Shown: in pieces, positions 3,530-4,498 of the stretch
How positions within the stretch are numbered: position 1 is the first letter of the stretch
How the letters are laid out: every line of letters begins with the position of its first letter
NCBI RefSeq assembly: GCF_024700885.2
Contig: NZ_CP117016.1
DNA from: Escherichia coli
GTDB taxonomy: Bacteria > Pseudomonadota > Gammaproteobacteria > Enterobacterales > Enterobacteriaceae
Strand: one strand, 5' to 3'
DNA: 64,000 nt
The notes under the pieces: generated by a model
Told to the model about the DNA's origin: nothing
Seen by the model: the letters and a program-made list of their open reading frames with translations, nothing else
Database searches by the model: none
Position numbers and translations under genes: made by a program

Positions 3530-4498
3530 GTGGCTGAGACATACGAAGATAAAGTTGCTAATCATGTTTCAGAGTGGGAAATGGAAAATTTCCGTGTATG
3601 TTATGATGATCAGGTTATTTTCTTATGTGGTGCGGAAGTACTTCCTCAAGGAAGTGTTCAGACTTCAATGAGAGGGCATTTTTATCACTATTGCCTGAAT
3701 AAAAATAAAGATATAGCTGATAAAATAATTCTTGCCGAAAACTTCAAAAAATATCTTCAAAATAATCATTATCCAGACTTAATAACTTTTGAGCATGATG
3801 TTGCAAGTATATCTAGTTTAGTTGTTATTTTCTTGGAAAGCAGTGGTTCAATTGCTGAGTTAGGTGTTTTCTGTAATATTAGTGATGTCAATAAAAAATT
3901 ATTGATATTTGTTCCATCAGATGAAGTTGAAGGTGACAAGAAAGAGTCTTTCATTTACTTAGGGCCTTTATTGTTTTTAAAAGAAAAGGTCAATGAAAAA
4001 GCATTTAAGATTTATCCAAAACCCACTAATGGTTCTGATTACTCCGAGCATTTAGAGATTATGGCTGATGACTTGGCTGAACTATTACCTAGAAGTGGTA
4101 AGTTTGAAAGCTTCGATCCTGACAATTTAGGGCATATAGCTTTTCTTATATGCAGAATTGTGCATTTAGTAATGCCTATTAAGCTAAAGGAAATATTAAA
4201 TTGTTTAAAAATAATAGGTATCAATAAATATACTCTGACTGAGGTTGAAAGAATTTTGTTTTTATTGGAAACATTGGGTTTTATAAATATTTATCCGTAT
4301 GGCGATTTAAAATACTATTATTCAATGCAAGCCAGGCAAAATCTTAAATTAGGGAAAAATAAAACCGGATTCACAATCGATGAGGCTGGTATTTTTACTG
4401 ATATTAGTGTTTTTATCAATGACAATAAATTATGTAGTGATAAAAAAAGACGGCTGGTTTTGAAAGGCATTAAGGAGAAGCATAATGGACATAATTAA
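3530..4498 (+). CDS. Retron-associated effector, nucleoside 2-deoxyribosyltransferase-like N-terminal domain plus C-terminal domain of unknown function (322 aa)
   Basis: Motifs VIFLCGAEV and ESSGSIAELGVF resemble the NDT signature (Rossmann strand ending in Gly; D/S-x-G-T/S-x-x-E-x-G with catalytic Glu). Overlaps RT start by 14 nt. Start is GTG 3530 with a weak RBS; ATG 3581 is an alternative. Confidence 0.55.
   Translation: MAETYEDKVANHVSEWEMENFRVCYDDQVIFLCGAEVLPQGSVQTSMRGHFYHYCLNKNKDIADKIILAENFKKYLQNNHYPDLITFEHDVASISSLVVIFLESSGSIAELGVFCNISDVNKKLLIFVPSDEVEGDKKESFIYLGPLLFLKEKVNEKAFKIYPKPTNGSDYSEHLEIMADDLAELLPRSGKFESFDPDNLGHIAFLICRIVHLVMPIKLKEILNCLKIIGINKYTLTEVERILFLLETLGFINIYPYGDLKYYYSMQARQNLKLGKNKTGFTIDEAGIFTDISVFINDNKLCSDKKRRLVLKGIKEKHNGHN

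What the first reader, a model, noticed from the sequence alone, without database searches (positions are those of the whole stretch)
3530..4498. Effector domain architecture: NDT-like N-terminus with an uncharacterised C-terminal half
Only the N-terminal third carries the NDT-like signature (VIFLCGAEV; ESSGSIAELGVF). The C-terminal roughly 180 residues (Lys/Ile/Leu-rich, GHIAFLICRIVHLVMPIKLKEIL) have no motif I can recognise; in described type II retrons this half is a DNA-binding domain. The weak RBS and alternative start (GTG 3530 versus ATG 3581) are also unresolved.
Basis: inference. Interest (0 to 1): 0.5.

Follow-up and report, generated by a model that had tools for sequence, protein, structure and literature searches.

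The report
Known retron toxin with winged-helix tail
This gene encodes the toxin of an already catalogued bacterial anti-phage retron (St85/Sen2 family); its "unrecognisable" C-terminal half is the family's usual winged-helix domain plus a basic helical tail, so the finding is real but ordinary.

Summary
The ORF at 3530-4498 (+), 322 aa, is real. It is identical to RefSeq WP_000852448.1, annotated "retron St85 family effector protein". It lies between a retron msr/msd ncRNA (3296-3486) and a retron reverse transcriptase (4485-5417), inside an AT-rich cargo module at the end of a P4-like satellite.

Family HMMs cover both halves of the protein: PADLOC NDT_II-A (E 2e-79) and NCBIfam STM3845_fam (224 bits, cut-off 100).

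A confident AlphaFold model (pLDDT 88) shows four parts:
- helix alpha1, res 5-13;
- an NDT/MilB-like N-glycosidase domain, about res 20-195. E110 of SIAELG aligns with catalytic E106 of the Retron-Eco1 effector;
- a basic two-helix tail, res 267-322.

Its fold and architecture match published descriptions of type II-A retron effectors.

The GTG at 3530 is the supported start. Two homologous loci with about 67% identical effectors start at the same column (GTG, TTG) behind a conserved CGGATAGT. ATG 3581 is ATA in one of them.

Verdict: already known, low interest. The substrate and the role of the winged helix are unresolved for this subfamily. A strictly co-inherited 8xMP membrane-protein gene next to the RT deserves a separate look.

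The parts
3296..3365 (+). retron msr RNA
   Evidence: Rfam RF00170 at 53.4 bits (gathering score 52), E 6e-8, full model 1-69
3368..3486 (+). msd region (template for msDNA). It contains a perfect 24-bp hairpin (3375-3398 / 3414-3437) and a second hairpin (3462-3494)
   Evidence: Rfam STnc400 (the St85 msd region) at 53 bits, E 2e-8, below its gathering score of 80. Inverted repeats I1 and I2. In the second hairpin both arms change together in L002 and L004, keeping the stem complementary
3519..3526 (+). conserved CGGATAGT block holding the weak SD-like GGA (3520-3522), 7 nt upstream of the start
   Evidence: Invariant in the window, L002 and L004 although the flanking DNA has diverged
3530..4498 (+). 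effector (toxin) gene, 322 aa, retron St85/RcaT family, GTG start
   Evidence: ORF. RefSeq WP_000852448.1 at the same coordinates. PADLOC NDT_II-A E 2e-79, res 8-310. NCBIfam NF038232 at 224.5 bits against a cut-off of 100
3530..3586 (+). N-terminal segment, res 1-19, with helix alpha1 (res 5-13). It lies upstream of the rejected ATG 3581
   Evidence: Conserved YE(D/E)K..H.S.W in homologues of 55-68% identity. Helix with pLDDT 87-94. The Eco1 effector also has an alpha1 before its NDT domain (bioRxiv 2023.08.16.553469, Fig. S6)
3587..4114 (+). NDT/MilB-like N-glycosidase domain, about res 20-195
3857..3859 (+). codon GAG for E110, the predicted catalytic glutamate (SIAELG)
   Evidence: Aligns with E106 of the Ec86/Eco1 effector. 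PDB 8qbl (E106A, 'inactive effector') shows Ala at this column. 99% conserved
4115..4327 (+). winged-helix domain, about res 196-266: H1 200-214, H2 219-228, H3 236-248, beta-hairpin wing 252-265
4328..4495 (+). C-terminal basic tail, res 267-322: a Lys-rich loop (RQNLKLGKNKTG) and two helices (285-297, 305-320) carrying D284 and the DKKRR motif (R307)
   Evidence: AF2. 11 K/R against 6 D/E. D284 is 83% and R307 85% conserved across the family
4485..5417 (+). retron reverse transcriptase, 310 aa. Its ATG overlaps the effector's 3' end by 14 nt
   Evidence: Pfam RVT_1 E 1e-24. NCBIfam retron_St85_RT at 347 bits against a cut-off of 235. PADLOC RT_II-A at 408 bits. The 14-nt overlap is conserved in L002, L004 and L006
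5412..5894 (-). convergent 8xMP / 'RipA family octameric membrane protein' gene, 160 aa, overlapping the RT stop by 6 nt. It is a co-inherited neighbour; a functional link is not shown
   Evidence: Pfam PF24838 E 1.5e-28. Same position in L002, L004, L006-8 and L009-10. In E. coli it occurs only in the 23 retron-positive genomes

Best explanation
The gene encodes the toxin/effector of a type II-A1 (St85/Sen2-family, RcaT-like) retron. The operon is msr-msd ncRNA, then effector, then RT, with the effector and RT translationally coupled.

The protein is bilobed. An N-terminal helix is followed by an NDT/MilB-like N-glycosidase domain (about res 20-195) with catalytic E110 and nucleotide-binding residues E70, S104 and S140. 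The C-terminal lobe is a winged-helix domain (about res 196-266) plus a basic two-helix tail (267-322).

By analogy with Sen2/Eco9 and Eco1, the RT-msDNA complex binds the effector and keeps it inactive. Phage functions that modify, degrade or sequester the msDNA release or activate it. The glycosidase domain then attacks NAD+ or another nucleotide or nucleoside, causing growth arrest (abortive infection). I infer that the C-terminal lobe is the docking and regulatory module that holds the toxin on its cognate RT-msDNA, with the basic tail and wing contacting nucleic acid.

Shown here: family membership, domain folds, conservation of active-site residues, start codon and operon context. Inferred: toxicity, substrate, and the role of the C-terminal lobe.
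For: Identity:
- RefSeq annotation at identical coordinates.
- PADLOC NDT_II-A E 2e-79 over res 8-310.
- NCBIfam NF038232 at 224.5 bits against a cut-off of 100, covering model positions 2-267 of 277. Residues 140-322 alone still score E 2e-25.
- Homologues carry Pfam PF28093 'STM3845'.

Context:
- msr RF00170 scores above its gathering score.
- The RT matches retron_St85_RT at 347 bits against a cut-off of 235.

Catalytic lobe:
- phmmer and hhalign against the Eco1 effector align E110 with E106, E70 with E65, S104 with S100, and S140 with S133. These four Eco1 residues are required for defence (bioRxiv 10.1101/2023.08.16.553469).
- They are 92-99% conserved in 115 family members with a median 29% identity to the query.

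C-terminal lobe:
- AF2 pLDDT 90-96 with winged-helix topology.
- The module occurs only behind the NDT-like domain: 137 of 167 retrieved proteins have both modules, and the other 30 are fragments of at most 216 aa.
- It evolves at the same rate as the catalytic half (N/C identity 67/68, 68/68, 56/52 and 56/51% in four loci).

Literature:
- Type II-A1 = NDT + C-terminal winged helix (PMC7736814).
- RcaT is a toxin neutralised by cognate RT plus msDNA, and D296 of the 320-aa RcaT-Sen2 is essential (bioRxiv 10.1101/2020.06.22.160168; length of 320 aa from PMC11701397).
- Phosphomimetic mutants S254D and S292D in Eco9 RcaT abolish defence (bioRxiv 10.1101/2024.12.20.629319).
- Phage functions that act on the msDNA part of the antitoxin trigger Sen2 (bioRxiv 10.1101/2020.06.22.160242).
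Against: - No experiment exists on this particular retron.
- It is not Eco9: the Eco9 serines S155, S181, S254 and S292 are absent.
- Its RT accession differs from the one listed for Ec73.
- The C-terminal half shows no sequence-profile similarity to the Eco1 effector C-lobe (hhalign prob 0.2), so extrapolating Eco1 structural details to this lobe rests on fold only.
- No Pfam NDT model hits the N-domain.
- The putative recognition helix H3 (EVERILFLLETL) is hydrophobic and acidic, not a typical DNA-reading helix.
- In Eco1 the functionally important msDNA contacts come from the NDT lobe, not the winged-helix lobe (bioRxiv 2023.08.16.553469, section 8).
- The toxic reaction of RcaT-type effectors is stated to be still unclear (bioRxiv 2024.12.20.629319). 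For Eco1, NAD(P)+ hydrolysis and adenine-derivative depletion have both been proposed (PMC12673091; bioRxiv 2023.08.16.553469).
Confidence: 0.85

Rival explanations
1. The C-terminal winged helix is a canonical sequence- or structure-specific DNA reader that directly recognises the msDNA stem-loop. This is the 'DNA-binding domain' label used in retron classifications. Toxin release would follow loss of that DNA contact.
For: Winged-helix fold with top matches to bacterial DNA-binding repressors (PadR, MecI, MarR, Fur, ArsR). A basic loop and tail follow the wing. K/R is the majority residue across the family at positions 241, 248, 273 and 305-307, and R307 itself is 85% conserved. [quoted passage not shown] In Eco1, C-lobe R219 contacts msDNA (bioRxiv 2023.08.16.553469).
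Confidence: 0.3
2. The C-terminal half makes the protein a membrane-anchored (bitopic) protein. The hydrophobic stretch GHIAFLICRIVHLVMPI would be a transmembrane helix. This follows older annotations: UniProt 'Hmp', 'putative inner membrane protein', and a 'bitopic protein with one TM'.
For: UniProt name 'Hmp' for the identical protein. ORF323 of Retron-Vmi1 is called a putative inner membrane protein (PMC11701397). A single TM was suggested in PMC7736814. Kyte-Doolittle 19-residue mean of 1.60 at res 199-217.
Against: The stretch is helix H1 of the winged-helix core, with pLDDT 94-96. It contains R209 and H212. Its hydropathy is no higher than the buried core of the soluble NDT domain (1.72). 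The Eco1 homologue is purified as soluble filaments with RT-msDNA (bioRxiv 2023.08.16.553469).
Confidence: 0.04
3. The N-domain is catalytically inert or is not a glycosidase, and toxicity comes from another activity: for example, the winged helix acting as a nucleoid or transcription poison, or the neighbouring 8xMP membrane protein acting as the true killer.
For: No Pfam NDT hit. RcaT's toxic mechanism is unresolved (bioRxiv 2024.12.20.629319). Inactivating mutations also map to the C-terminal part in Sen2 and Eco9 (same preprint and bioRxiv 2020.06.22.160168). The 8xMP gene is strictly co-inherited.
Against: Active-site residues are near-invariant across a family with median 29% identity, which argues for a maintained enzyme. 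In Eco1 the equivalent residues are required for defence, and E106A is the 'inactive effector' (bioRxiv 2023.08.16.553469). RcaT alone is toxic in E. coli without any 8xMP gene supplied (bioRxiv 2020.06.22.160168). More distant family members lack 8xMP.
Confidence: 0.08

Closest known systems
RcaT of Retron-Sen2 (St85; STM3845) and Retron-Eco9, type II-A1 retron toxins
   Same: Same NCBIfam equivalog family (NF038232), Pfam PF28093 and PADLOC NDT_II-A model. Same gene order, msr-msd then effector then RT. Same size (about 320 aa). Cognate St85-family RT. The expected mechanism is a tripartite toxin-antitoxin, with RT-msDNA as the antitoxin.
   Different: It is a distinct member. The Eco9 RcaT serines S155, S181, S254 and S292 are not present. 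It sits in a P4-like satellite hotspot, whereas the literature describes Sen2 as inserted directly in the chromosome (PMC11701397). It carries a tightly linked 8xMP gene; whether Sen2 or Eco9 have one was not checked. It has not been tested experimentally.
Retron-Eco1 (Ec86) effector, type II-A3 (PDB 7v9x, 7xjg, 8qbk, 8qbl, 8qbm)
   Same: Bilobed alpha1 + NDT-like + winged-HTH architecture. The N-domains are homologous (hhalign prob 98.9). The catalytic Glu and the E/S/S ligand-binding residues are conserved. Full-length Foldseek match: E 1.9e-9 over 325 columns.
   Different: The C-terminal lobes have no detectable sequence similarity. Overall TM-score is only about 0.5. The gene order differs: effector then ncRNA then RT in Eco1. 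The RT belongs to a different clade (clade 9 against clade 1, PMC7736814).
Retron-Eco3 (Ec73) of retronphage phiR73
   Same: Type II-A1, with an extra ORF between msd and RT, and carried by a P4-like element (PMC7736814, PMC11701397). The msd stem here is a perfect hairpin.
   Different: The RT accession here (WP_000351381.1) differs from the one listed for Ec73 (WP_137545672.1). I could not obtain the Ec73 sequences, so the degree of relatedness is untested.
MilB / nucleoside 2-deoxyribosyltransferases (NDT superfamily)
   Different: No Pfam NDT model is matched. [quoted passage not shown] It is a regulated toxin rather than a salvage enzyme.
PadR / MecI / MarR-type winged-helix domains
   Different: 9-21% identity across the listed hits and no significant profile match. 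The recognition helix is hydrophobic and acidic. It is never found as a stand-alone regulator: the C-only hits are fragments of at most 216 aa.

Membership tests
Retron St85-family effector (RcaT; NCBIfam NF038232 / Pfam PF28093 / PADLOC NDT_II-A) | Score above the curated family HMM cut-off over essentially the full model | tested here: met
   NF038232 at 224.5 bits against a cut-off of 100, model positions 2-267 of 277. PADLOC PDLC02928 E 2.3e-79, positions 2-274 of 279
Retron St85-family effector (RcaT; NCBIfam NF038232 / Pfam PF28093 / PADLOC NDT_II-A) | The C-terminal half belongs to the same family model and is not a fusion to something else | tested here: met
   Res 140-322 alone hit NF038232 at E 2e-25, positions 117-267. 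The C-module profile finds it only behind NDT-like N-domains
Retron St85-family effector (RcaT; NCBIfam NF038232 / Pfam PF28093 / PADLOC NDT_II-A) | Encoded between an msr-msd ncRNA and a cognate retron RT (type II-A1 order) | tested here: met
   msr RF00170 at 53.4 bits, at or above its gathering score of 52, at 3296-3365. RT NF038233 at 347 bits against a cut-off of 235, at 4485-5417
Retron St85-family effector (RcaT; NCBIfam NF038232 / Pfam PF28093 / PADLOC NDT_II-A) | Toxic alone and neutralised by cognate RT plus msDNA | not testable with these tools
   Shown for Sen2 and Eco9 only (bioRxiv 10.1101/2020.06.22.160168)
Retron-Eco1-type NDT-like N-glycosidase effector | Homologous NDT-like domain with the catalytic Glu (E106) and ligand residues E65, S100 and S133 | tested here: met
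   hhalign prob 98.9, E 2e-17. E110, E70, S104 and S140 align with them and are 92-99% conserved
Retron-Eco1-type NDT-like N-glycosidase effector | Sequence-homologous C-terminal lobe | tested here: not met
   hhalign of the C-half profile against Eco1 res 160-307: prob 0.2. There is fold-level similarity only (Foldseek, 325 aligned columns)
Retron-Eco1-type NDT-like N-glycosidase effector | NAD(P)+ hydrolysis and filament assembly with RT-msDNA | not testable with these tools
   Known for Eco1 (summarised in PMC12673091). Unknown for type II-A1
Nucleoside 2-deoxyribosyltransferase superfamily | Match to a Pfam NDT model | tested here: not met
   No Pfam hit at E<=1 other than a spurious TonB_C match
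Nucleoside 2-deoxyribosyltransferase superfamily | NDT/MilB fold | tested here: met
Winged helix(-turn-helix) domain | H1-H2-H3 plus beta-hairpin wing topology, with structural matches to solved winged-helix domains | tested here: met
Winged helix(-turn-helix) domain | Basic or polar DNA-contacting recognition helix, and DNA binding | tested here: inconclusive
   H3 = TEVERILFLLETL, hydrophobic and acidic, with family-conserved K/R only at positions 241 and 248. DNA binding cannot be tested here
Integral membrane protein (legacy annotation) | A transmembrane helix | tested here: not met
   Best C-half hydropathy of 1.60 is no higher than the soluble NDT core at 1.72. The segment is H1 of the winged helix with pLDDT >90

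The most novel reading that the evidence does not exclude
In this enterobacterial sub-clade the retron may really be a four-gene unit. The convergent 8xMP/'RipA-family' octameric membrane protein overlaps the RT stop codon by 4-6 nt. It has co-diverged with the effector and RT across P4-like and non-P4 mobile contexts. It might be a second, membrane-acting effector or a modulator. The effector's winged-helix-plus-basic-tail lobe might act as a cognate RT/partner-docking module rather than as a DNA reader.
Probability: 0.15. Interest if true: 0.55.

Novelty: already known. Interest (0 to 1): 0.15.

Why it matters
The result mainly closes the question. The gene is an annotated retron toxin, and the 'mystery' half is the family's winged-helix lobe. 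The residual value is modest and comes in three pieces:

1. No structure of a type II-A1 (Sen2/Eco9-type) effector turned up in the PDB searches made here. The toxic reaction of RcaT-type effectors is still described as unclear. This work supplies a confident model, the residues conserved across the family (H202, E221, L246, Y263, D284, R307), and the observation that the recognition helix looks buried. These give concrete mutagenesis targets for asking whether the lobe reads msDNA or docks the RT.

2. The legacy 'inner membrane protein' label for these ORFs is probably wrong.

3. The strict linkage to an 8xMP membrane-protein gene is not mentioned in the retron papers I could read, and it could be tested cheaply.

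Tried and rejected
- **Pfam on the whole protein and on 18 C-terminal halves.** Nothing significant: TonB_C E 0.09-0.2, HTH_45 E 0.034 in one member. The family's own Pfam entry, PF28093, is newer than the local Pfam copy.
- **Profile of the C-half against PDB sequences.** Only sub-threshold hits: MTA/SAH nucleosidase E 0.16, ArsR E 0.22, Fur E 1. I treat these as noise. The ArsR and Fur hints are consistent with the fold result.
- **hhalign of the C-half against the Eco1 effector C-half.** No similarity.
- **Megablast of the retron against phage genomes.** No match. tblastn found only about 30% identical St85-family effectors in three Pseudomonas Pf-like phages.
- **Naming the retron.** It is not Eco9. 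The RT accession differs from the one listed for Ec73. Sequences for Ec73 and Sen2 were not obtainable, so D296 of RcaT-Sen2 could not be mapped reliably.
- **Carabias 2024 and Wang 2024 papers.** Not held in the library. I used the Wang preprint and secondary summaries instead.
- **Literature search for 8xMP/RipA.** Nothing relevant. The 8xMP protein has no PDB or PADLOC hit.
- **Consensus promoter scan.** No convincing sigma-70 site upstream of msr.
- **The a1/a2 inverted repeats of the ncRNA.** Left unresolved: there are two candidate pairs, I3 and I4.
- **Alternative start at ATG 3581.** Rejected.
- **Transmembrane reading.** Rejected.
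Full report
**Observation**

The window contains an ORF at 3530-4498 on the + strand. It starts with GTG and encodes 322 aa.

The gene lies in a segment of about 29-32% GC (about 3600-6200), flanked by DNA of about 50% GC. An open frame of 969 nt in such stop-rich DNA is not a chance event.

The exact protein is annotated at exactly these coordinates in RefSeq as WP_000852448.1, "retron St85 family effector protein". The 2.15-kb retron segment is present at 95% identity or more in 23 of 5,426 complete E. coli genomes. The identical sequence is UniProt A3RLX4 ("Hmp") and is seen on at least 1,000 contigs. Its 90% cluster includes E. coli, Salmonella and Morganella; the RT's cluster also includes Enterobacter.

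**Context**

- Upstream is a retron msr RNA (Rfam RF00170, 53.4 bits, gathering score 52, 3296-3365).
- Next is an msd region that matches the Salmonella St85 msd family STnc400 (3368-3486, E 2e-8, below its gathering score). It has a perfect 24-bp hairpin.
- Downstream, overlapping the effector by 14 nt, is a 310-aa reverse transcriptase. It matches Pfam RVT_1, NCBIfam retron_St85_RT (347 bits, cut-off 235) and PADLOC RT_II-A (408 bits).
- To the left are P4-type genes: primase, a 247-aa ORF, psu, and delta/ogr. The retron therefore occupies the cargo position at the end of a P4-like satellite.

**Family assignment**

PADLOC's NDT_II-A model matches res 8-310 (E 2.3e-79). NCBIfam's equivalog model STM3845_fam matches res 20-286 at 224.5 bits against a cut-off of 100. 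Residues 140-322 on their own still match it at E 2e-25.

Homologues found in the 5.8-billion-protein collection (99% down to 28% identity) all carry Pfam PF28093 "STM3845". That entry is newer than the local Pfam copy, which is why Pfam returned nothing. Both halves of the protein therefore belong to one described family.

**N-terminal lobe**

phmmer against PDB sequences finds only the Retron-Ec86/Eco1 effector (7v9x, 7xjg, 8qbk, 8qbm, 9jm0; E 1e-6), over res 29-158. hhalign of the family alignment against the Eco1 effector (taken from E. coli C) gives probability 98.9 and E 2e-17 over res 28-157.

In these alignments:
- E110 of SIAELG pairs with Eco1 E106. This is the residue mutated in PDB 8qbl, "inactive effector (E106A)".
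- E70 pairs with E65, S104 with S100, and S140 with S133.
- These are the four residues reported as conserved and required for Eco1 defence (bioRxiv 10.1101/2023.08.16.553469).

I assembled 115 full-length family members with a median 29% identity to the query. In these, R48, E70, E88, E103, S104, G106, E110, S140, F141, I142 and G145 are 92-100% conserved.

The domain extends to about res 195, not just the first third of the protein.

**C-terminal half**

There is no significant match in Pfam, none in PDB sequences using a profile of 18 C-terminal halves, and none to the Eco1 effector's C-terminal half (hhalign prob 0.2).

At fold level the answer is clear. The model shows H1 200-214, H2 219-228, H3 236-248 and a beta-hairpin at 252-265, all with pLDDT 90-96. 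A Lys-rich loop and two helices (285-297, 305-320) follow.

This agrees with two published descriptions:
- The Eco1 effector was described as alpha1 + NDT domain + winged-HTH domain (bioRxiv 10.1101/2023.08.16.553469, Fig. S6).

A profile of the C-terminal module was searched against 1.84 billion representatives. It gave 654 hits at E<=1e-3 and 352 at E<=1e-10. I held 167 proteins in total: the 150 best of these hits plus the homologues. Of these, 137 also have the NDT-like N-domain. The 30 that do not are all at most 216 aa, consistent with gene fragments. The module therefore appears to be confined to this architecture.

The C-terminal half diverges at the same rate as the catalytic half (N/C identity 67/68, 68/68, 56/52 and 56/51% in four loci). 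F195, H202, L206, E221, I222, L246, Y263, D284 and R307 are 83-96% conserved.

Published genetics on relatives show that the C-terminal part is needed:
- D296 of the 320-aa RcaT-Sen2 is essential for toxicity (bioRxiv 10.1101/2020.06.22.160168; length from PMC11701397).
- S254D and S292D in Eco9 RcaT abolish defence (bioRxiv 10.1101/2024.12.20.629319).

I could not map these residues onto this protein, because I could not obtain those sequences.

**Is the winged helix a DNA reader?**

This remains open. Helix H3 (TEVERILFLLETL) carries five consecutive hydrophobic residues and several acidic ones. Across the family only positions 241 and 248 tend to be basic. The basic character sits in the loop after the wing and in the C-terminal helix (DKKRR; 11 K/R against 6 D/E in res 271-322).

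In Eco1, the msDNA contacts that matter for defence come from lysines of the NDT lobe. The C-lobe contributes a single contact (R219), and msDNA deletions at the C-lobe contact region had little effect on defence (preprint section 8). In Sen2 and Eco9, specificity resides in cognate RT-toxin contacts. Effector and RT trees co-vary.

On this basis I favour a docking or regulatory role on the RT-msDNA complex over a classical DNA-reading role. This is an inference.

**Transmembrane reading rejected**

Older labels read the hydrophobic stretch at 199-217 as a membrane anchor: "Hmp", "putative inner membrane protein" and "one TM" (PMC11701397; PMC7736814). Its Kyte-Doolittle mean is 1.60, no higher than the buried core of the soluble NDT domain at 1.72. 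It contains R209 and H212. It forms H1 of the winged-helix core at pLDDT >90.

**Start codon**

GTG 3530 is the first possible start after an in-frame stop 78 nt upstream. Two loci whose effectors are 67-68% identical were aligned at DNA level (L002 and L004).
- They start at the same column, with GTG and TTG.
- They share an invariant CGGATAGT ending 4 nt before the start. It contains a weak GGA Shine-Dalgarno-like element 7 nt upstream.
- They show conservative, codon-wise divergence through codons 2-17.
- ATG 3581 is ATA in L002.

Homologues at 55-58% identity conserve Y5, K8, H12, S14 and W16. These residues lie in or just after a confidently predicted helix alpha1 (res 5-13), which also exists in the Eco1 effector. 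RefSeq also uses the GTG.

**Mechanism (best explanation)**

The locus is a tripartite toxin-antitoxin retron.
1. The RT copies msd into msDNA.
2. RT-msDNA binds the bilobed effector and keeps it inactive.
3. Phage functions that act on the msDNA release or activate it. Dam methylation, the racC-recE pair of the Rac prophage, and a prophage RT that sequesters msDNA were shown for Sen2 (bioRxiv 10.1101/2020.06.22.160242). Dcm methylation was shown for Eco1.
4. The NDT-like glycosidase, with E110, then depletes NAD(P)+ or other nucleotides and arrests growth.

Shown here: family membership, folds, active-site conservation, start codon and operon layout. Inferred: toxicity, substrate and C-lobe function. 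The substrate of RcaT-type effectors is explicitly unresolved in the literature (bioRxiv 10.1101/2024.12.20.629319).

**Comparison and novelty**

By every membership criterion that could be tested, the protein is a member of the St85/RcaT family (type II-A1). It is a structural analogue of the Eco1 effector (type II-A3), with clear homology only in the N-lobe.
- It is not Eco9.
- Its RT accession differs from the one listed for Ec73.
- I found no paper on this exact retron.

The architecture, including the winged helix, is published, and the gene is annotated. I therefore rate it already known and of low interest.

**Side observation**

A convergent 160-aa gene (5412-5894, minus strand; Pfam 8xMP PF24838; RefSeq "RipA family octameric membrane protein") overlaps the RT stop codon by 6 nt.

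- The same arrangement, with a 4-6 nt overlap, occurs in several other loci: two metagenomic loci (L002, L004), Klebsiella P4-like satellites (L006-8), and a non-P4 island in Providencia (L009-10).
- Identity to the window falls in parallel for effector/RT/8xMP: 67/58/48, 68/66/50, 55/55/39 and 55/54/39%.
- In complete E. coli genomes the gene occurs only in the 23 retron-positive strains.
- It is absent from two distant family members.
- It has no PADLOC, PDB or literature hit here.

Whether it is a functional partner or a hitch-hiking cargo gene is unknown.

Noticed in passing
window 5412-5894 (-); also L002 3970-4452, L004 2703-3182, L006 5891-6373, L009 5896-6384: An 8xMP / 'RipA family octameric membrane protein' gene (PF24838) lies convergent to the retron RT and overlaps its stop codon by 4-6 nt. 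It is conserved in that position in P4-like and non-P4 contexts and has co-diverged with the effector and RT (48-50% and 39% identity where effectors are 67-68% and 55%). In E. coli it is found only in the 23 retron-positive complete genomes. It is absent from two distant retron relatives. No PADLOC, PDB or literature hit.
   Followed up: partly
window 1-2706 and 6000-7000: The retron is cargo at the right end of a P4-like satellite: TOPRIM/DUF927 primase ending at 736, a 247-aa ORF at 1137-1880, psu at 1877-2428, delta/ogr at 2425-2706. It is followed by LysR-family pseudogene fragments that mark the chromosomal junction. GC drops from about 50% to about 30% across 3600-6200.
   Followed up: partly
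window 3245-3303 and 3268-3279 / 3506-3517: The a1/a2 inverted repeats that should bracket the ncRNA are ambiguous. One candidate pair (GTATGAAAAAAA / TTTTTTGTATAC) would end the ncRNA 13 nt before the effector start. A second perfect 9-nt pair (TAAGGAGCA / TGCTCCTTA) has its partner upstream of msr rather than downstream of msd. No consensus sigma-70 promoter was found upstream of msr.
   Followed up: no
window 3462-3494; L002 and L004 equivalents in alignment A2: In a 13-bp hairpin just downstream of the main msd stem, both arms change together in two diverged loci and the stem stays complementary. This suggests a conserved structural element of the ncRNA or msDNA.
   Followed up: no
window 4485-5417: The RT scores almost equally on PADLOC RT_II-A (408 bits) and RT_I-A (389 bits). 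This is consistent with the published observation that type I-A (Septu-like) and type II-A1 retrons share one ncRNA-RT module (clade 1) with swapped effectors.
   Followed up: partly
phage records OR863249.1, OR801192.1, OR863250.1 (hits H19-H21): Three roughly 12-kb Pseudomonas phages (PfAC01a, PfAC04, PfAC01b) encode St85-family effectors about 30% identical to this one. Retrons of this type therefore also ride on phages other than P4-like satellites.
   Followed up: no
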